From Candidatus Freyarchaeota archaeon (GTDB lineage: Archaea; Asgardarchaeota; Jordiarchaeia; Jordiarchaeales; Jordiarchaeaceae), in NCBI GenBank assembly GCA_030587365.2, contig JAUQZE020000364.1, positions 1-27,324 of the forward strand: 27,324 nt of DNA. Direction: 5' to 3'. Each line of letters begins with the position of its first letter. Positions within the stretch are counted from its first letter, which is position 1. A program made the translations under genes and the position numbers. The notes under the pieces are model-generated. The model saw nothing but the letters and a program-made list of their open reading frames with translations, did no database searches and was not told the origin of the DNA. Below are positions 3,923 to 24,989 of this stretch, piece by piece.

Positions 3923-4783
3923 TTGAAAGGTAGAGCTTTAGCTTTCGGAGCGGGAACAGTTGTAAATGCTATTGCTACTGGTTTTGGCGCTGCTTTTGGA
4001 ATCGCTCTTTGGACAAAGGCAGAAGTGGAACTTTTGAATGAACCAGGATTTTTCGAGGGAAAAATTCTAAATGAGCCCTCCGAGAATACTAGGCTAATAT
4101 GTACCACTGTTAAACATGTCTTGAATCACTTCAAACTGAGCCGGGAATATGGTGCTCGAGTGATTACTGATTCCATAATTCCTATCTCTAAGGGGCTTAA
4201 GAGTAGTAGTGTAGCCGCCAACGCAGTTGCCTTAGCCACTGTTGCGGCTCTGAAAGAAAACTTAGAGGATCTGGAAATCATTCGTATAGGCGTTGAGGCG
4301 GCTCTAGAGTCGGGAGTAACTATAACGGGAGCTTTTGACGACGCTTGTGCATCATATTTTGGTGGGTATGTAGTCACAGATAATCTAAAGAGAATATTGA
4401 TTAGTAGACAGCAACTTAAGGAAGATTTGGCAGTAATGATTCAGGTGCCACCCGGAAAGAGCCACAGAGAGGGTAACATTAAAAGAATGAAATCCATTAA
4501 AAACTATGTAGAACACGTTTTTAACCTCGCTCTGAATGGAGAATACAAAACTGCAATAACTCTAAACGGCCTGCTCTACTCTGCAGCCTTGGGTTACGAC
4601 GCAGAAGCTACAGTCAGAGCCCTTGAAGCTGGAGCGGTTTCAGCGGGATTAACAGGAACTGGGCCCGCGACAATTGCGCTATGCCCTAGAGACGTTTGTG
4701 ACGATATCGAAACTTCCTGGAAAGAGTTAGAAGGTAGAATTATTCGCACCGAATTTAATAACGAAAAGGCCAAAGTACTCTAG
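3923..4783 (+). CDS. aroK: Archaeal-type (GHMP-kinase family) shikimate kinase
   Basis: The N-terminus GAGTVVNAIATGFGAAFGI and the GHMP motif PISKGLKSSSVAANA resemble the Methanocaldococcus-type shikimate kinase. The gene starts 3 nt after the aroE stop. Confidence 0.87.
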   Translation: MKGRALAFGAGTVVNAIATGFGAAFGIALWTKAEVELLNEPGFFEGKILNEPSENTRLICTTVKHVLNHFKLSREYGARVITDSIIPISKGLKSSSVAANAVALATVAALKENLEDLEIIRIGVEAALESGVTITGAFDDACASYFGGYVVTDNLKRILISRQQLKEDLAVMIQVPPGKSHREGNIKRMKSIKNYVEHVFNLALNGEYKTAITLNGLLYSAALGYDAEATVRALEAGAVSAGLTGTGPATIALCPRDVCDDIETSWKELEGRIIRTEFNNEKAKVL

Positions 4784-4796
4784 AGAGGTAATTTTC

Positions 4797-6095
4797 ATGA
4801 ATCTAGTAGTTAATGGTGGAGGTAGTCTGCAAGGAGCTGTTTCTGCCCCTCCCTCAAAAAGTTATACTCACAGAGCTTTTATTATATCAACTCTTGCTGA
4901 GGGGAAGTCTGAAATTTTTGAGCCCCTAATTAGTAGAGACACTCTCGCATCCATAAGGGCTTGTGAAGCCTTAGGCGCGGTTATTGAGAGGAGAGGCGAA
5001 AAGGTATGGTGCGTTTCAGGTTCTCCGTCACCCAAAACACCAGAAGATGTTATAAATGTTGATAATTCAGGAACCACAATTCGTATTATGACTGCTGTCT
5101 CCTCCTTAGCTCCAGGATTTACTGTACTTACAGGCGACTCCTCAATCAGGCAGAGGCCAATGGGCCCACTTATTAAATCTTTGGGAGATTTAGGAGTGAG
5201 ATGTTTTTCTACAAAGGGTGATGACAAACCTCCCATTGTGGTGGAGGGCGGAGGTATTAAAGGAGGAAAAACAAATATTCCTGGACATATCAGCTCCCAA
5301 TTTATTTCAGCTCTACTTATTGCCTGTCCTTTAGCTAAAAACGAAACAAGAATAAGTTTTACCTCCGAACTAAAATCAGAGCCCTATCTTGAAATGACCA
5401 TGGAGGTTCTAAGCCTTTTCAAGGGAAATATAAAATACTTACCAAATATGGGTGTGGTTATACCCCCAAAACAGACATACTCACCAGCCAGCGTTAGGAT
5501 TCCAGGGGACTTCTCTTCGGCTGCATTTATTCTTTCAGCCGCGGCTATAACTGATTCCGATGTAAAAATCCATAATTTGGACATGGGTTCCAAGCAGGGC
5601 GATAAGAAAATTGTCGATATACTTATCAAAATGGGTGCTGAGGTCGAATTGGGAGAAAATTATGTTAGGATAATTGGAGGTCATAAACTAAAGGGCATCT
5701 CTTTTGATTGTGGTAATAACCCTGATTTGCTGCCCATTCTTGCTGTTTTAGGGTCAGTTGCAGAGGGTAAAACCGATATCTTTAATGCACAACATGTTCG
5801 CTACAAAGAGAGCGATCGCGTATCTGCCATGGCTAAAGAACTATCCAAAATGGGCATTCGCATAGATGAAAAGATAGATGGTCTTACCATTCATGGTGGG
5901 AAATTAAAAGGGGCTCATGTTGAAACTTATAATGACCATAGGATACTCATGGCCCTTGCAGTAGCTGCTCTAGCGGCAGAAGGGGAAACTATTATTTCGG
6001 GAGTGGAGTCTGTAGATGTTTCTTACCCCTCCTTTCTTGAGGATATGAATTTCCTAGGTGCGAATTTTAGGAGAATGAATAAAAATGACGGGTAA
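4797..6095 (+). CDS. aroA: 3-phosphoshikimate 1-carboxyvinyltransferase (EPSP synthase)
   Basis: Motifs PPSKSYTHRA, NSGTTIRIM, RQRPMGPL and NDHRILMA. GAGGT Shine-Dalgarno upstream. Confidence 0.95.
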   Translation: MNLVVNGGGSLQGAVSAPPSKSYTHRAFIISTLAEGKSEIFEPLISRDTLASIRACEALGAVIERRGEKVWCVSGSPSPKTPEDVINVDNSGTTIRIMTAVSSLAPGFTVLTGDSSIRQRPMGPLIKSLGDLGVRCFSTKGDDKPPIVVEGGGIKGGKTNIPGHISSQFISALLIACPLAKNETRISFTSELKSEPYLEMTMEVLSLFKGNIKYLPNMGVVIPPKQTYSPASVRIPGDFSSAAFILSAAAITDSDVKIHNLDMGSKQGDKKIVDILIKMGAEVELGENYVRIIGGHKLKGISFDCGNNPDLLPILAVLGSVAEGKTDIFNAQHVRYKESDRVSAMAKELSKMGIRIDEKIDGLTIHGGKLKGAHVETYNDHRILMALAVAALAAEGETIISGVESVDVSYPSFLEDMNFLGANFRRMNKNDG

Positions 6096-9657: not shown

Positions 9658-11661
9658 TTAAGTTAGATGTTTACTGACGTATACCATATTATCTTCTACT
9701 TTTACCATTCCTGCTCTTTCAAGCCAAGCAAGATTGGCGCGTACTTGGACTGGAGCTATTCCCGTCGCTTTAATCAGGCTATCTATGCTGATTTTTTTGA
9801 GGCTTTCAATTATAAAGTATATTTTGAACCGAGGATCAAGTACCATGGCCTCCCTGTATTTCTCTAATTGTTCTTCGCGAATCTTCTTTTCTCTTTCAAG
9901 TTCTTCTTTCATTTTTTCCATTTCTTTAGCTTTAGTCTCAAGCTCCTTAACTTTGGCTTCTATCTCATCCTTCCTAACAAATATTTGCTTCTGGATTATT
10001 TGCATCTCGTCTTTTAGCGCTTTTATTTCTTCTTCCTTCAAGCGCAATTGGCTTTCCTTTTGTCTGATTAAAGCTGCGTTGCCCTCAATGTCACTTTTCA
10101 AGTTTTCGATTTCAGAGCGCAGTCCTGCAGCGTCACTCTCAAGTTGCTCTAAGAGCTTTTGGGCGTCTCTAAGCCTATCTTCCTTAAGTTCCAAGTCTTT
10201 GCGGCTATCCTCAATTAGGCTTTTTAGCCTTTCTACTTCTCTTTCTTTCAGTTTGAGCATATTTGCCCCTTCGGCTATGAAGGCGTCTCTCTCTTTAACC
10301 ATGCTCTCCAGGTTTTTGATTTGCTGGTTAAATTTGGACAGCTCAAGCTGTGCACCCTCCAATTTCTCCTCTAGTTCCGCTGCTCTCCCTCTTTCAGTTT
10401 CAAGTGTCATCTGAAGTCTTGACAGCTCTTTGCTTGTGGACTCCAACTCAAATCTTACTTTTTCCAGCTCCTCCCTCTTTGCGGTTAACTCTTTTTCTTT
10501 TTCTTGAAGTTCTTTGCTCTTTGCCGCAAGCTGGGTGTTAGTTACTTCTAAGGCCTTCTCCCTCTCTAAAAGATATTTGGTTCTCTCATCCAGCATCTTC
10601 TCTTTTTCTTTAAGTTGGGAGTTAAGTTCCTGTATGCGGGCTCTAGCTTCTGCTTCCTCCTCCTCAAGTTTTTTAGCCTCTAACCGTGCCTTTTCATATT
10701 TTTCTAACAGATCTCCCGAGCGACTTTTTTCTTCGTCCAACAATTTCTTTAGATTATTATACTCCTGCCGCGCGTTCTCAAGTTCTTTTTCGATTTTTTC
10801 TAGGCTGACTCGTTTTTGGTCCAGTTCACGGGTTTTTTCTTCTAATAATTTTTCTCTCTCTTTGAGCTTTTCACTAGTTTCTTCGAAAATTTTCTCTCTT
10901 TCAAGAAGCTGGCTGTTTAGCTCCTCCACTCTCTGTCTAACTTCCTTCTCCTTACTCTCAAGTTTTTTAATTTCTTGCTCCGCGTTTTCGAGTTTTTCAA
11001 GAAGCGTTCGGGACTTCAGTTTTTCCTCCTCATATTTCTCTAAAGCAGACTTCATTTGGGATTCTACAGAATCCAACTCTGCTCTTTTCTGTTCTAGGCT
11101 GCTCTTTACCTCTTCTAATTCTCTTCTCCTAGTTTCCAGCTCTCTGTCTTTTTCTTCGAGTTCCTTTACCTTTTCTACTAAGGCTAGAGTGTTCTTTTTC
11201 AAAAGGGCTTCTCGCTCCGCGAGTTGCTTATCAAACTGTCTAATTGTTTCATTAACTTTTTCCCTCTCTCCTTCAAGAACGGTAGAAAAATTTTTGGCGA
11301 ACTTGTTTATAGCTTCTCTAAAGACTTGCATTTCACCTTCAATAGCATTGGAGAGATTTTGCATGGCTTGTTCTCTAACTTCATCAACGACTTCTGATAC
11401 CGTGTCAACAAATGTGTATTTTATTAGTTCTGAAGCAAATCGAATGTGAACCTTAGCAACTAAACGCTCACTCACTAAATCCTTCATATTAAGGATATTC
11501 TCCTTTAAATTCTCCAAACTTCCTGAAATCGCAGCATCCAACCCAAGTCTTACATCGTCTACCGCAGATTCCAAGTCGCTAAGGTTTTTACGCAGCAAAT
11601 CAGCAGAATAGAAACCCTCAACCTTTAAATCACCTGCTTTTGAACGATTTTCTTCCTGCAT
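9658..11661 (-). CDS. Large coiled-coil protein (667 aa) with internal ~100-aa tandem repeats and a C-terminal winged-helix-like domain
   Basis: About 450 aa of heptad-like E/K/L-rich sequence. Repeat units share ...EKYEEEKLKSRTLLEKLENAEQEIKKLESKEKEVRQRVEELNSQLLEREKIFEE... versus ...EKSRSGDLLEKYEKARLEAKKLEEEEAEARARIQELNSQLKEKEKMLDE.... The C-terminus ISIDSLIKATGIAPVQVRANLAWLERAGMVKVEDNMVYV looks like a wHTH. AGGAG Shine-Dalgarno upstream. Confidence 0.8.
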   Translation of the reverse strand: MQEENRSKAGDLKVEGFYSADLLRKNLSDLESAVDDVRLGLDAAISGSLENLKENILNMKDLVSERLVAKVHIRFASELIKYTFVDTVSEVVDEVREQAMQNLSNAIEGEMQVFREAINKFAKNFSTVLEGEREKVNETIRQFDKQLAEREALLKKNTLALVEKVKELEEKDRELETRRRELEEVKSSLEQKRAELDSVESQMKSALEKYEEEKLKSRTLLEKLENAEQEIKKLESKEKEVRQRVEELNSQLLEREKIFEETSEKLKEREKLLEEKTRELDQKRVSLEKIEKELENARQEYNNLKKLLDEEKSRSGDLLEKYEKARLEAKKLEEEEAEARARIQELNSQLKEKEKMLDERTKYLLEREKALEVTNTQLAAKSKELQEKEKELTAKREELEKVRFELESTSKELSRLQMTLETERGRAAELEEKLEGAQLELSKFNQQIKNLESMVKERDAFIAEGANMLKLKEREVERLKSLIEDSRKDLELKEDRLRDAQKLLEQLESDAAGLRSEIENLKSDIEGNAALIRQKESQLRLKEEEIKALKDEMQIIQKQIFVRKDEIEAKVKELETKAKEMEKMKEELEREKKIREEQLEKYREAMVLDPRFKIYFIIESLKKISIDSLIKATGIAPVQVRANLAWLERAGMVKVEDNMVYVSKHLT

Positions 11662-24184: not shown

Positions 24185-24448
24185 GCTCGCGTGATTGACT
24201 AGTTTTAGTGTAAAAATATAAATTTTTCTATCGCATTGTCCCCTTACAATAAAAAACATGCCTAAAATTTCGTGCATTTTTGAGTTATCCCCATTAATTC
24301 TTGGAAATTTTAAAGAAATCGTGTATCAAACGTCAAAAATTCGTCAGGTTAGAGAGCTCTAGTAAAAAATTTATGTGGCGCAAACATATCTGCTTGATAA
24401 ATTCCTTTTTACTTTTGTGAATGTAGGTTAAGTCTTGCTAGAAGTTAG

Positions 24449-24461
24449 AAATATTTATATT
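24449..24461 (+). promoter_or_regulatory. TATA-box-like element (AAATATTTATATT) for the permuted 5S transcript
   Basis: It lies ~25-30 nt upstream of the first base of the processing helix (24483/24484). Similar TTTATAT-type elements precede the tRNA-Asp and tRNA-Lys genes on the other strand. Confidence 0.5.
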
Positions 24462-24483
24462 TCGGCACTGCGTGTGGGTTCTT

Positions 24484-24633
24484 GGCGTCGCTGCGTGAAA
24501 GTCAAATCTATACACGATTCGGTGAGTACTGCTCTCCGCGAGGGACCGGGAAAACCGAATACTGGCATCTCGGTGCCGGTCATAGTGTATAGTGAACTAC
24601 CCGTTCTCATCCCGAACACGGAACAGCGACGCC
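24484..24633 (+). other. Precursor of the permuted 5S rRNA, including the BHB processing helix
   Basis: GGCGTCGCTG (24484-93) pairs perfectly with CAGCGACGCC (24624-33). CGTG (24494-97) pairs with CACG (24617-20). The 3-nt bulges AAA (24498-500) and GAA (24621-23) lie on opposite strands. Confidence 0.8.
24500..24622 (+). rRNA. Circularly permuted 5S rRNA. The gene order is 3' two-thirds, then hexaloop, then 5' third.
   Basis: Rotating the sequence gives TGCCGGTCATAGTGTATAGTGAACTACCCGTTCTCATCCCGAACACGGAAGTCAAATCTATACACGATTCGGTGAGTACTGCTCTCCGCGAGGGACCGGGAAAACCGAATACTGGCA. This aligns block by block with archaeal 5S consensus strings (GGTCATAG, CCCG..CATCCCGAAC.CGGAAGT.AA, GTACTG, GCGAG, GGGAA). 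Helix I (ACTGGCA/TGCCGGT) is capped by TCTCGG at 24568-73. Confidence 0.82.
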
Positions 24634-24647
24634 ACTCCTCCCTTTGC

Positions 24648-24660
24648 TTTTTTAATTTTT
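24648..24660 (+). terminator. Oligo-T terminator (T6 AA T5) downstream of the 5S precursor
   Basis: TTTTTTAATTTTT begins 15 nt after the processing helix ends. Archaeal RNA polymerase terminates at T-runs. Confidence 0.5.
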
Positions 24661-24781
24661 ATGGCATTCTCTATCTATGTTCCCTTATTGTGGCTTGAGA
24701 GAAATGGAAACAAAAACTTTATGTAACTCTTGTGTATAATTTTCTATACACTCCAAATAGTTTACCGTTTCCCATTTAGGT

Positions 24782-24989
24782 GGGGACGTAGTGTAGTCAG
24801 TGTTGTTCAAAACATGTTTGTGGTTTTGAACGCGACTAGGCAGCACGGCAGGCTCCAGAGGCTGTGAATATTGGCTGAGCTGACCAGAAGATGATGAACT
24901 TCTGGAGCAGTGAGCCAGAGAGACTTGCTAGTCGTGAGTTCAAAGTGGAGAAACAATGTTTCTCTATGGAAATCTCACCGTCCCCACCA
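24782..24989 (+). tRNA. tRNA-Trp(CCA) interrupted by three BHB introns, at 24801-24839 (D-loop, 39 nt), 24859-24922 (canonical 37/38, 64 nt) and 24945-24972 (T-loop 59/60, 28 nt). CCA is encoded.
   Basis: Spliced product: GGGGACG TA GTGT AGTCAGGCA GCAC G GCAGG CTCCAGA CTTGC TAGTC GTGAG TTCAAAT CTCAC CGTCCCC A CCA (77 nt). BHB central helices are AGTC/GACT (D-loop), CTCC/AGAG with one C-A mismatch (37/38) and TTCA/TGGA (59/60). Each is flanked by 3-nt bulges and an intron hairpin. Confidence 0.87.
24859..24922 (+). ncRNA. Box C/D guide RNA embedded in the tRNA-Trp 37/38 intron; predicted to guide 2'-O-methylation of C34 of its own tRNA
   Basis: D' CUGA (24880-83) is followed by a 7-nt spacer and C' AUGAUGA (24891-97). 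The 12-nt guide ACTTCTGGAGCA (24898-909) precedes a D-like GUGA (24910-13). A degenerate C box, GUGAAUA (24864-70), could covary with GUGA. TCTGGAGC is the reverse complement of tRNA positions 31-38 (GCTCCAGA), and the N+5 rule lands on C34. Confidence 0.65.

What the first reader, a model, noticed from the sequence alone, without database searches (positions are those of the whole stretch)
24484..24633. Circularly permuted 5S rRNA gene bracketed by a bulge-helix-bulge excision/circularisation motif
On the + strand, 24501-24567 is GTCAAATCTATACACGATTCGGTGAGTACTGCTCTCCGCGAGGGACCGGGAAAACCGAATACTGGCA. This is the 3' two-thirds of a 5S rRNA. It contains the helix II 3' strand CTATACAC, helix V ATTCGGT/ACCGAAT, the loop-E-like GAGTACTG, a GNRA-capped helix IV TCC-GCGA-GGG, and the helix I 3' strand ACTGGCA.

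It is followed, not preceded, by 24574-24622, TGCCGGTCATAGTGTATAGTGAACTACCCGTTCTCATCCCGAACACGGA. This is the 5' third, with the helix I 5' strand TGCCGGT, the helix II 5' strand GTGTATAG and the loop C region CCCGTTCTCATCCCGAACACGG. The native 3' and 5' termini are covalently joined by a hexaloop, TCTCGG (24568-73).

The new termini sit in a motif with exact BHB geometry. A 10-bp helix 24484-93/24624-33 runs directly into the 4-bp helix CGTG/CACG. Two 3-nt bulges, AAA 24498-500 and GAA 24621-23, lie on opposite strands.

Cleaving in both bulges and ligating the excised piece gives ...CACGGAAGTCAAATC.... This recreates the conserved CGGAAGUnAA segment between helices III and II. The result is predicted to be a 123-nt covalently closed 5S rRNA, or a permuted linear one if no ligation occurs.

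A TATA element (24449-61) and a T-run (24648-60) frame the unit as an independent gene. The precedents I recall are permuted tRNA genes (Cyanidioschyzon, Thermofilum), a permuted SRP RNA gene in Thermoproteus, and circular rRNA processing intermediates. I do not know of a gene-level permuted 5S rRNA. Standard rRNA finders would report two out-of-order fragments or nothing.
Basis: partly seen in the sequence, partly recalled or inferred. Interest (0 to 1): 0.93.

Follow-up and report, generated by a model that had tools for sequence, protein, structure and literature searches.

The report
Circularly permuted 5S rRNA gene
This Asgard archaeon encodes its 5S ribosomal RNA back to front, flanked by a tRNA-intron-type splice signal that should cut it out and join its ends, probably into a circle; the arrangement is conserved in several Asgard lineages, standard rRNA finders miss it, and I found no earlier description.

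Summary
Window 24500-24622 (+) is a complete 5S rRNA in rotated order. Rfam positions 51-120 come first, then a capped helix I, then positions 1-50.

- Rfam's 5S model finds only a 25-nt fragment.
- A covariance model built solely from canonical 5S genes of haloarchaea and Firmicutes, rotated by hand, hits the window once, full length, at exactly 24500-24622 (43.3 bits, E about 1e-9).
- The same architecture occurs in 11 distinct sequences from independent assemblies, including a complete, long-read-validated Freyarchaeum chromosome.
- It has its own conserved BRE/TATA promoter and a T-run.
- 21 of 40 pairs in the 5S fold show compensatory changes.
- The leader-trailer stem differs in sequence between clades but stays complementary.
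- In every homologue a 4-nt central helix with two 3-nt bulges places the cuts so that ligation recreates ...CCGAACNCGGAAGYYAAG....

Two caveats apply. The motif is a relaxed bulge-helix-bulge (BHB), with no inner helix. Its central helix also competes with 5S helix III.

Not shown: RNA-level processing, whether the product is circular or nicked, and the absence of a canonical 5S elsewhere in these genomes. Ten literature searches found no description of an archaeal permuted or circular 5S.

The parts
24445..24461 (+). BRE/TATA promoter element (TTAGAAATATTTATATT). Its centre lies about 26 nt upstream of the first base of the leader helix.
   Evidence: TTAGAAAT(A/G)TTTATAT is nearly invariant in four Jord/Frey genomes while the sequence around it drifts (alignment A1). 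TATA-like boxes also precede the stem in L006, L008, L009 and L012.
24483..24493 (+). Leader: 5' strand of the outer (processing) helix.
   Evidence: 11 contiguous pairs with 24624-24634. There are compensatory changes in L003 and a wobble change in L004. Other clades have entirely different but still complementary sequences.
24494..24497 (+). 5' strand of the 4-bp central helix H of the BHB-like motif (CGTG).
   Evidence: Pairs with CACG 24617-24620. H has 4 bp in Jord/Frey and L006. It has 3 bp plus a mismatch in L008, L009, L012 and L013.
24498..24500 (+). 5' three-nucleotide 'bulge' AAA. The predicted cut is 24499|24500, and A24500 becomes 5S position 51.
   Evidence: The R1 hit starts exactly at 24500. 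The rule that cutting falls between bulge nt 2 and 3 follows from tRNA 37/38 geometry (PMC4090602). There is no inner helix next to this bulge, so the motif is relaxed.
24500..24567 (+). 5S rRNA segment equivalent to Rfam positions 51-120. It holds the helix II 3' strand (24507-15), helix V (24517-23 with 24554-60), the loop E GAGUAC, helix IV (24529-37 with 24542-49, GCGA loop) and the helix I 3' strand (24561-67).
   Evidence: R1 alignment; RNAalifold consensus and pair counts.
24568..24573 (+). Cap that joins the native 3' and 5' ends of 5S: U.G closing pair plus CUCG tetraloop.
   Evidence: Relatives carry UUCG, CUCG, GCAA or GUUA tetraloops at the same place, with helix I lengthened by about 5 bp in L008, L009 and L013.
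24574..24622 (+). 5S rRNA segment equivalent to Rfam positions 1-50. It holds the helix I 5' strand (24574-80), the helix II 5' strand (24585-94) and helix III/loop C (24601-06 with 24614-21).
   Evidence: Rfam RF00001 partial hit 24599-24623 to model positions 27-51. nhmmer hit 24579-24623 to model positions 8-51. R1 hit ends at 24622.
24617..24620 (+). 3' strand of central helix H (CACG). It overlaps the 3' strand of 5S helix III (24618-21), so the BHB and helix III are alternative foldings.
   Evidence: Forcing the BHB costs 0.2 kcal/mol relative to the MFE in the window, and 0.2-5.6 kcal/mol across 10 homologues.
24621..24623 (+). 3' three-nucleotide bulge GAA, flanked by H and the outer helix. 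The predicted cut is 24622|24623.
   Evidence: The discarded third bulge nucleotide varies (A to T in L014 and L009), while the two retained nucleotides do not.
24624..24634 (+). Trailer: 3' strand of the outer helix.
24648..24661 (+). T-runs (CTTTTTTAATTTTTAT), the likely archaeal terminator.
   Evidence: Sequence. T-runs follow the trailer in all relatives. Function is inferred.

Best explanation
24483 to about 24655 is a stand-alone transcription unit for a functional, circularly permuted 5S rRNA.

Proposed pathway:
1. The primary transcript reads leader, 5S positions 51-120, tetraloop cap over helix I, 5S positions 1-50, trailer.
2. Leader and trailer pair into an 11-bp stem that continues into a 4-bp helix flanked by two 3-nt bulges. 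This is a relaxed bulge-helix-bulge motif, and it forms at the expense of the base of 5S helix III.
3. The archaeal tRNA-splicing endonuclease (EndA) cuts after the second nucleotide of each bulge, at 24499|24500 and 24622|24623.
4. The RtcB ligase joins A24622 to A24500. This restores the conserved ...CCGAACACGGA-AGUCAA... strand and lets helix III form.
5. The product is a 123-nt 5S rRNA whose classical ends are permanently closed by a tetraloop. It is most likely a covalent circle, and it enters the large subunit in that form.

Shown here: the sequence architecture, 5S identity, conservation, covariation, and the geometry and register of the motif.

Inferred: transcription limits, EndA cleavage, RtcB ligation, circular end state, and use in ribosomes.
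For: 5S identity in rotated order:
- R1 was built only from rotated canonical 5S of Haladaptatus and Firmicutes. It hits 24500-24622 full length, 43.3 bits, E 1.4e-9, and is the only hit in the window.
- BLAST of the rotated sequence runs colinearly across the junction against canonical Haladaptatus 5S, query positions 26-108.
- ViennaRNA gives the three-way junction.

Conservation:
- The gene is syntenic (rpoB, 5S, tRNA-Trp, SPOUT methyltransferase, L23, Ogg) in four Jord/Frey genomes.
- It is also present in Njordarchaeota and other Asgard MAGs.
- All four JGI metagenome contigs that carry an order-independent helix IV motif are permuted.

Structure: 94% of cells pair, 21 of 40 pairs have double changes, 0 of 500 shuffles reach this, and slid controls give 36-46%.

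Processing motif:
- It is present in 11 of 11 sequences.
- The stem sequence differs between clades but stays complementary (9.4 of 10 positions paired within a sequence against 4.8 of 10 across clades).
- The motif register differs by 1 nt between clades, yet the ligated junction is always CCGAACNCGGAAG(Y)(Y)AAG.
- The discarded bulge base varies.

Accessibility: the BHB conformer lies within 0.2-5.6 kcal/mol of the MFE.

Lineage context:
- 92-95% of Freyarchaeia and Atabeyarchaeia tRNA genes carry introns, many at non-canonical positions (PMC11291895).
- The very next gene is a tRNA-Trp with three introns.

Precedents:
- The Thermoproteus permuted SRP RNA is cut at a leader-trailer BHB by recombinant endonuclease and circularised (PMC4731332).
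- E. coli ribosomes tolerate a 5S whose native ends are closed by a tetraloop (PMC7283268).
Against: - There are no RNA data: no junction reads, and no evidence for cleavage or ligation.
- The 5' cut site lacks the inner flanking helix of a strict BHB. In four homologues the central helix has only 3 bp.
- The subunit type and substrate range of the Asgard endonuclease were not examined.
- The central helix must compete with 5S helix III.
- I could not scan any whole genome for a conventional 5S gene. The description of Jordarchaeum madagascariense lists 'a 5S rRNA gene' without saying how it was found (PMC9723677). A partial HMM hit such as that could explain it, but that is a guess.
- R1 scores for the Jord/Frey clade (40-43 bits) are modest, and R1 E-values are only roughly calibrated.
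Confidence: 0.75

Rival explanations
1. Cut but not ligated. The endonuclease (or another nuclease) removes leader and trailer, and the mature 5S is a linear, permuted 123-nt RNA. Its ends lie in the internal loop between helix III and helix II, and helix II holds the molecule together.
For: The nick would sit between two adjacent nucleotides of an internal loop inside a stably folded RNA. Brown-algal mitochondrial 5S works with relocated ends (PMC4267664). Nothing in the sequence requires ligation.
Against: Products of the archaeal splicing endonuclease that have been studied are ligated by RtcB. These include introns, pre-16S and pre-23S rRNA and the permuted SRP RNA (PMC4731332, PMC12918454). 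Here the two ends are held next to each other, which is the ideal ligation substrate.
Confidence: 0.15
2. Circular intermediate that is reopened. After circularisation, the helix I cap is cut away to regenerate conventional 5' and 3' ends. This is how permuted tRNAs of Cyanidioschyzon gain their true ends through RNase P and tRNase Z.
For: This is the established route for permuted tRNAs (PMC4090602). Helix I is about 5 bp longer than usual in L008, L009 and L013, which could be a removable extension.
Against: The caps are short, very stable tetraloops (UUCG, CUCG, GCAA) directly on helix I. This looks like a permanent closure rather than a spacer. No known archaeal 5S end-maturation signal is evident. 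E. coli tolerates a tetraloop-closed helix I (PMC7283268).
Confidence: 0.1
3. The leader-trailer stem is an ordinary processing stem cut by other nucleases, not by the splicing endonuclease. The resemblance to a BHB is incidental.
For: The motif is relaxed. It has no inner helix, and in four homologues the central helix has only 3 bp.
Against: The pattern of a 4-nt helix plus 3-nt bulges on both strands recurs in 11 of 11 sequences. A 1-nt shift in register is compensated so that the product stays the same. That is hard to explain without BHB-type symmetric cutting.
Confidence: 0.07
4. Non-functional relic or assembly artefact. This would be a rearranged 5S pseudogene, or collapsed tandem copies, with the real 5S gene elsewhere.
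For: A whole-genome search for a canonical 5S could not be run. One related MAG is reported to have 'a 5S rRNA gene' (PMC9723677).
Against: The arrangement is the same in 11 distinct sequences from independent assemblies, including a complete, long-read-validated chromosome (PMC11291895). The promoter is conserved. Compensatory changes occur in all 5S helices and in the processing stem. No canonical-order copy turned up among metagenome contigs sharing the helix IV motif.
Confidence: 0.03

Closest known systems
Circularly permuted SRP RNA gene of Thermoproteus (Plagens et al. 2015, PMC4731332)
   Same: A universal structured ncRNA is encoded with its 3' part before its 5' part. A short leader pairs with the trailer into a BHB. 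The tRNA-splicing endonuclease and RtcB are proposed, and for SRP RNA shown, to excise and circularise the RNA. The host lineage has an exceptional load of tRNA introns. Standard gene finders miss the gene.
   Different: The RNA here is 5S rRNA, a ribosome component, rather than SRP RNA. The lineage is Asgard rather than Thermoproteales. The native ends are closed by a minimal tetraloop. The BHB central helix is made from, and competes with, a helix of the mature RNA. There is no experimental evidence here.
Permuted tRNA genes (Cyanidioschyzon merolae; Thermofilum pendens), reviewed in PMC4090602
   Same: The 3' half lies upstream of the 5' half. The native ends are bridged by a short loop. 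Leader and trailer form a BHB. The splicing machinery produces a circular intermediate.
   Different: tRNAs are reopened by RNase P and tRNase Z to give normal ends. No such step is evident for the 5S, whose cap looks permanent.
BHB-dependent circular pre-16S/pre-23S rRNAs, and circular or permuted 23S in archaeal ribosomes (PMC7758197, PMC12918454)
   Same: EndA cuts at a BHB in a leader-trailer processing stem, and ligation gives a circular rRNA. For 23S the circular or permuted form is the one in the ribosome.
   Different: Those genes are colinear with the mature RNA, and the BHB lies outside the mature domain. PMC12918454 states explicitly that this pathway applies to 16S and 23S 'but not 5S rRNAs'.
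Permuted mitochondrial 5S rRNA of brown algae (Valach et al. 2014, PMC4267664; Rfam mtPerm-5S)
   Same: A 5S rRNA whose helix I is a closed hairpin and whose ends lie elsewhere.
   Different: It is an organellar RNA. Its ends are at the three-way junction. Its beta and gamma domains are not reordered. It has no BHB, no leader-trailer stem and no proposed ligation. No separate Rfam match to such a family appears in the window.
Engineered E. coli cp5S rRNA (Huang et al. 2020, PMC7283268)
   Same: The native 5S ends are linked by a tetraloop, new ends are opened elsewhere, and the ribosomes work.
   Different: It is artificial. The new ends are at apical loops and are fused into 23S rRNA.

Membership tests
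5S rRNA (Rfam RF00001) | Three-way junction with helices I-V in the consensus positions | tested here: met
   This holds after rotation. The R1 alignment covers model positions 1-120. RNAalifold on 10 homologues recovers helices I, II, III, IV and V with 94% of cells paired and 21 covarying pairs.
5S rRNA (Rfam RF00001) | Conserved loop C / helix III sequence (CCCAUCCCGAACNCGGAAGU) and the loop E GAGUAC...GGGAA motif | tested here: met
   24599-24623 matches model positions 27-51 almost base for base. GAGTACTG and GGGAA are present. The GGAAGU strand exists only after the predicted ligation.
5S rRNA (Rfam RF00001) | Gene colinear with the RNA and scoring above the Rfam gathering score (38 bits) | tested here: not met
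   No hit at the gathering score in the window or in 12 related loci. Canonical controls score 86-103 bits. The failure is due to the order of the segments, not their content.
5S rRNA (Rfam RF00001) | [quoted passage not shown] | not testable with these tools
   Needs RNA or ribosome data.
Substrates of the archaeal splicing endonuclease (BHB motif) | Central 4-bp helix | tested here: met
   CGTG/CACG in the window. It has 4 bp in 7 of 11 homologues and 3 bp plus a mismatch in 4.
Substrates of the archaeal splicing endonuclease (BHB motif) | Two 3-nt bulges on opposite strands, each flanked by helices (strict hBHBh') | tested here: inconclusive
   The 3' bulge is strict, lying between H and the 11-bp outer helix. 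The 5' AAA is bounded by H on one side only, and no conserved inner helix exists. This corresponds to the relaxed HBh'/hBH class that lenient endonucleases accept (PMC4090602).
Substrates of the archaeal splicing endonuclease (BHB motif) | Cleavage by EndA at the two bulges | not testable with these tools
   Needs an enzyme assay or end mapping. Indirect support: the R1 hit ends coincide with the cut between bulge nt 2 and 3, and the product junction is conserved across a 1-nt register shift.
Circularly permuted ncRNA genes restored by the splicing machinery (permuted tRNAs, Thermoproteus SRP RNA) | 3' segment upstream of the 5' segment, with native termini bridged by a short linker | tested here: met
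   The linker is a tetraloop in all homologues.
Circularly permuted ncRNA genes restored by the splicing machinery (permuted tRNAs, Thermoproteus SRP RNA) | Leader and trailer pair into a BHB at the new termini | tested here: met
   with the caveat that the motif is relaxed.
Circularly permuted ncRNA genes restored by the splicing machinery (permuted tRNAs, Thermoproteus SRP RNA) | Circular RNA with the predicted junction detected in vivo | not testable with these tools
   No transcriptome access.
Brown-algal mtPerm-5S | Ends at the three-way junction, helix I replaced by a terminal hairpin, and the other domains in normal order | tested here: not met
   The break here is between Rfam positions 50 and 51, inside the helix II/III arm. 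There is no separate Rfam match at E up to 10.

The most novel reading that the evidence does not exclude
In Jordarchaeia/Freyarchaeia, Njordarchaeota and some other Asgard archaea, the only 5S rRNA is made from a permuted gene by the tRNA-splicing machinery. It sits in the ribosome as a covalently closed circle with no free ends. That would be the first cytoplasmic ribosome known to use an end-less 5S rRNA, and the first rRNA whose gene order must be corrected by splicing.
Probability: 0.45. Interest if true: 0.95.

Novelty: new variant of a known kind. Interest (0 to 1): 0.88.

Why it matters
5S rRNA is usually treated as the most uniform and most easily annotated rRNA. Current reviews and a 2026 survey state that BHB-dependent excision and circularisation concerns archaeal 16S and 23S but not 5S.

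If this reading is right, several things follow.
- A permuted, splice-dependent 5S would extend the splicing endonuclease/RtcB pathway to the third rRNA.
- It would give a natural counterpart to the engineered tetraloop-closed 5S of E. coli.
- It would explain why 5S is missed or called 'partial' in Asgard MAGs. That matters for MIMAG 'high-quality' calls, which require a 5S.
- It would add a ribosome-biogenesis peculiarity to the archaeal group closest to eukaryotes.
- The competition between the BHB and helix III suggests a built-in folding switch that can be tested.
- Rfam and rRNA finders would need a permuted-5S model.

Tried and rejected
- Rfam at the gathering score on the window and on 12 related loci gave no 5S. 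At the E-value threshold it gave only a 25-nt fragment.
- ARAGORN on the window found no tRNAs, although a three-intron tRNA-Trp is present.
- An exact-sequence look-up of the neighbouring methyltransferase failed, probably because the start codon was called differently.
- Assembly artefact or collapsed tandem repeat was rejected (see the rival explanations).
- Pseudogene was rejected on covariation and promoter conservation.
- I looked for an inner helix that would complete a strict hBHBh' motif. Only 2-3 non-conserved pairs are possible (GUU/AAC in L006, UC/GA in the window), so I treat the motif as relaxed.
- Two of the nine hits in the genome scan (L007 Thermoguttaceae, L010 Wenzhouxiangellaceae) show no 5S features or flanking stem when read and get no R1 hit. 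I treat them as chance matches.
- A brute-force ARAGORN search over intron borders of the tRNA gave nothing, probably because of how I parsed the output. A hand-spliced version was then called as tRNA-Trp.
- No call found a canonical 5S.
- Ten literature searches (one rejected by the tool because a term was too short) found no archaeal permuted or circular 5S. Marck & Grosjean 2003 is not held in the library.

Full report
**1. The observation.**
- GGCGTCGCTG (24484-93) and CAGCGACGCC (24624-33) are perfect reverse complements. The helix is 11 bp with T24483-A24634.
- CGTG (24494-97) pairs with CACG (24617-20).
- AAA (24498-500) and GAA (24621-23) are left unpaired on opposite strands.
- Standard tools do not see a 5S gene. 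Rfam at its gathering scores finds nothing in the whole window. With permissive settings only 24599-24623 matches RF00001, model positions 27-51 (21.7 bits). A sequence HMM of canonical 5S finds only model positions 8-51.

**2. Is it a 5S rRNA in rotated order?**
- The rotated sequence (24574-24622 followed by 24500-24567) folds on its own into a three-way junction.
- BLAST of the rotated sequence against plasmid records aligns it colinearly, across the proposed ligation junction, with the canonical 5S of Haladaptatus (query positions 26-108).
- For a formal test I took seven canonical 5S genes, two haloarchaeal and five from Firmicutes. Each scores 86-103 bits against RF00001.
- I rotated them at Rfam position 50|51, closed helix I with arbitrary tetraloops and projected the Rfam structure onto the alignment. 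From this I built covariance model R1.
- R1 contains no information from the window or its relatives. It hits the window once, at 24500-24622, over model positions 1-120, with 43.3 bits and E 1.4e-9. These are exactly the ends predicted from the bulges.
- All related permuted loci are also hit full length (39.6-69.9 bits). The canonical controls are hit as two out-of-order halves.

**3. Source organism and relatives.**
- The window is archaeal. It has an unsplit rpoB, DHQS-II, a shikimate-pathway operon and L23.
- The neighbouring SPOUT methyltransferase is 97% identical to a Candidatus Freyarchaeota protein. It is 66-70% identical to proteins of Jordarchaeaceae, Freyarchaeum deiterrae and a MAG labelled Lokiarchaeia.
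- In three such genomes the same gene neighbourhood holds a homologous permuted 5S at the same place. One of them is the complete 3.58-Mb chromosome CP147778.1, which its authors validated with long reads (PMC11291895).
- I scanned GTDB species genomes for 'loop E before loop C within 40-70 nt'. This found seven permuted 5S loci and two bacterial loci with no 5S features, which I take as chance matches.
- Those seven loci are Jordarchaeia (L004, L011), Freyarchaeia (L005), Njordarchaeota (L009), a 'Promethearchaeati' MAG (L008), an unclassified archaeon (L006) and a MAG labelled Thermoproteota (L012).
- The TrpRS of L012 is 99% identical to a Freyarchaeota protein, so the label is probably wrong.
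- The nearest named relatives of an L006 protein are Heimdall-group Asgard, at 33-35% identity.
- A metagenome scan with an order-independent helix IV/loop E motif returned four contigs. All four are permuted and none is canonical.

**4. Conservation and covariation.**
- RNAalifold on ten distinct permuted bodies was given no structure. It returns the 5S fold in permuted order.
- 94% of cells form standard pairs and 21 of 40 pairs show changes on both sides. None of 500 shuffles reaches the observed values, and sliding the partners by 1-3 columns drops pairing to 36-46%.
- The BRE/TATA element TTAGAAAT(A/G)TTTATAT is almost invariant about 26 nt upstream of the leader helix in the Jord/Frey group. 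TATA-like boxes and T-runs frame the unit in the other lineages too.
- This is a functional, selected gene. It is neither a relic nor an assembly artefact.

**5. The processing motif.**
All 11 distinct homologues share one layout.
- A leader-trailer stem of 5-16 bp continues on the 5' strand into a 4-nt helix H.
- A 3-nt bulge on the 3' strand lies between H and the stem. Three unpaired nucleotides follow H on the 5' strand.
- The stem sequences are unrelated between clades but always complementary. Within a sequence 9.4 of 10 positions pair, against 4.8 of 10 for cross-clade combinations. There are also compensatory and wobble changes within clades.

The cut rule follows from tRNA geometry. 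Anticodon nucleotides 34 and 35 are the last two of the central helix and the splice site is 37/38 (PMC4090602). So the endonuclease cuts between bulge nucleotides 2 and 3. Applying this gives three results.
- The excised piece is 24500-24622 (123 nt).
- The ligated junction reads CCGAACACGGA-AGUCAA. The same canonical 5S strand, CCGAACNCGGAAG(Y)(Y)AAG, is recreated in every homologue.
- The motif sits one nucleotide further 3' in L006, L008, L009, L012 and L013 (cut at 51|52) than in the Jord/Frey group (cut at 50|51).

The discarded third nucleotide of the 3' bulge varies (A or U), but the retained ones do not. A register shift that leaves the product unchanged is what selection on a BHB-excised, ligated product predicts.

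**6. Deviations from a strict BHB.**
- There is no conserved inner helix beside the 5' cut site. The motif therefore belongs to the relaxed hBH/HBh' class, which lenient endonucleases such as the alpha2beta2 type accept (PMC4090602, PMC4731332). I did not determine the endonuclease type of this lineage.
- Four homologues have only 3 bp plus a mismatch in H.
- H uses 5S positions 45-48 (46-49 in the other clades). It is therefore mutually exclusive with the 3' strand of helix III.
- The BHB conformer lies 0.2 kcal/mol above the MFE in the window and 0.2-5.6 kcal/mol above it across homologues. It is thus accessible. Removing the leader would then commit the RNA to the mature fold.

**7. End state.**
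- Helix I is closed by UUCG, CUCG, GCAA or GUUA tetraloops directly on the helix. This looks like a permanent cap.
- E. coli ribosomes work with a 5S whose native ends are joined by a tetraloop (PMC7283268).
- RtcB ligates the known endonuclease products, including the permuted SRP RNA of Thermoproteus (PMC4731332).
- My estimates for the mature form are: covalently closed circle about 0.55; nicked, linear permuted form about 0.2; reopening at the cap, as in permuted tRNAs, about 0.15.
- None of this is shown here.

**8. Lineage context.**
- Freyarchaeia and Atabeyarchaeia carry introns in 92-95% of their tRNA genes, often several per gene and at non-canonical sites (PMC11291895).
- The gene directly downstream, 24782-24989, is a tRNA-Trp(CCA) with three inserts. 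ARAGORN recognises it only after I remove them.
- This parallels Thermoproteus, where a record intron load accompanies the permuted SRP RNA (PMC4731332).

**9. Novelty.**
- Ten full-text searches (one rejected by the tool) found no report of an archaeal permuted or circular 5S.
- A January 2026 paper on archaeal rRNA circularisation, which includes Asgard transcripts from the same wetland site as CP147778.1, states that the pathway concerns 16S and 23S 'but not 5S rRNAs' (PMC12918454).
- The brown-algal mitochondrial 'permuted' 5S is of a different kind (PMC4267664).
- The mechanism class is known from permuted tRNAs and SRP RNA. Its application to 5S rRNA, with a BHB built from a helix of the mature RNA and a probable end-less product, is a new variant.
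- The library covers open-access papers only, so an earlier description elsewhere cannot be excluded.

**10. What remains open.**
- Whether these genomes also hold a conventional 5S. I could not scan a whole genome. The Jordarchaeum madagascariense description mentions 'a 5S rRNA gene' without giving the method (PMC9723677).
- Whether cleavage and ligation actually occur.
- Whether the circle is the form present in the ribosome.
- The full phylogenetic distribution.

Noticed in passing
window 24782-24989 (+): An unannotated tRNA-Trp(CCA) gene with three inserts: in the D-loop (24799-24837), at the anticodon-loop 37/38 position (24859-24922) and in the T-loop (24945-24972). ARAGORN misses it in the genomic sequence but calls tRNA-Trp once the three inserts are removed by hand. 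The 208-nt gene, inserts included, is conserved downstream of the 5S in L001-L003 at 76-83% identity. Insert borders are ambiguous by 1-2 nt.
   Followed up: yes
window 24860-24915 (+), inside the 37/38 insert of the tRNA-Trp: C/D-box sRNA-like element with a weak Rfam hit to sR3 (22.9 bits, E 0.0032, below the gathering score). TGATGA and CTGA boxes are visible. The stretch TCTGGAG is complementary to the tRNA's own anticodon loop CTCCAGA. It resembles the known archaeal tRNA-Trp intron that nests a box C/D guide RNA (PMC4090602).
   Followed up: partly
window 24435-24698 (+); L002 3279-3443; L003 3234-3398: Spurious ORFs lie over the permuted 5S: 87 aa in the window's ORF list and 54-aa called 'genes' in two public assemblies. 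The RNA gene is being mis-annotated as a hypothetical protein.
   Followed up: partly
L012 (JAPDJY010000015.1, labelled 'Thermoproteota archaeon S9B3_HD70'): Its TrpRS is 99% identical to a protein named Candidatus Freyarchaeota. Its next-best named hits are Freyarchaeota and Jordarchaeaceae. The NCBI organism label is probably wrong and the MAG is an Asgard of the Jord/Frey class.
   Followed up: partly
L006 about 4575-4810 (+): The 5-bp stem next to the BHB is enclosed by a second 10-bp helix (GAGACGCGTG ... CACGCGTCTC). There is also an extra small hairpin (AGGT/ACCT) in the trailer. This is a two-tier processing stem not seen in the other lineages.
   Followed up: no
L008 1795-1923, L013 7357-7485, L009 3375-3505: In the Njordarchaeota-type genes helix I is about 5 bp longer before its tetraloop. 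The excised body is 129-131 nt instead of 121-123 nt.
   Followed up: no
window 24579-24623: A canonical-order nhmmer profile reports a partial 5S here (model positions 8-51, E 1.4e-6). HMM-based rRNA finders may therefore score such genomes as having a (partial) 5S. This could lie behind the '5S rRNA gene' listed for Jordarchaeum madagascariense (PMC9723677), but that is a guess.
   Followed up: partly
window 9658-11661 (-): A 667-aa ORF with no Pfam match at E up to 0.001, sitting among well-annotated housekeeping genes.
   Followed up: no
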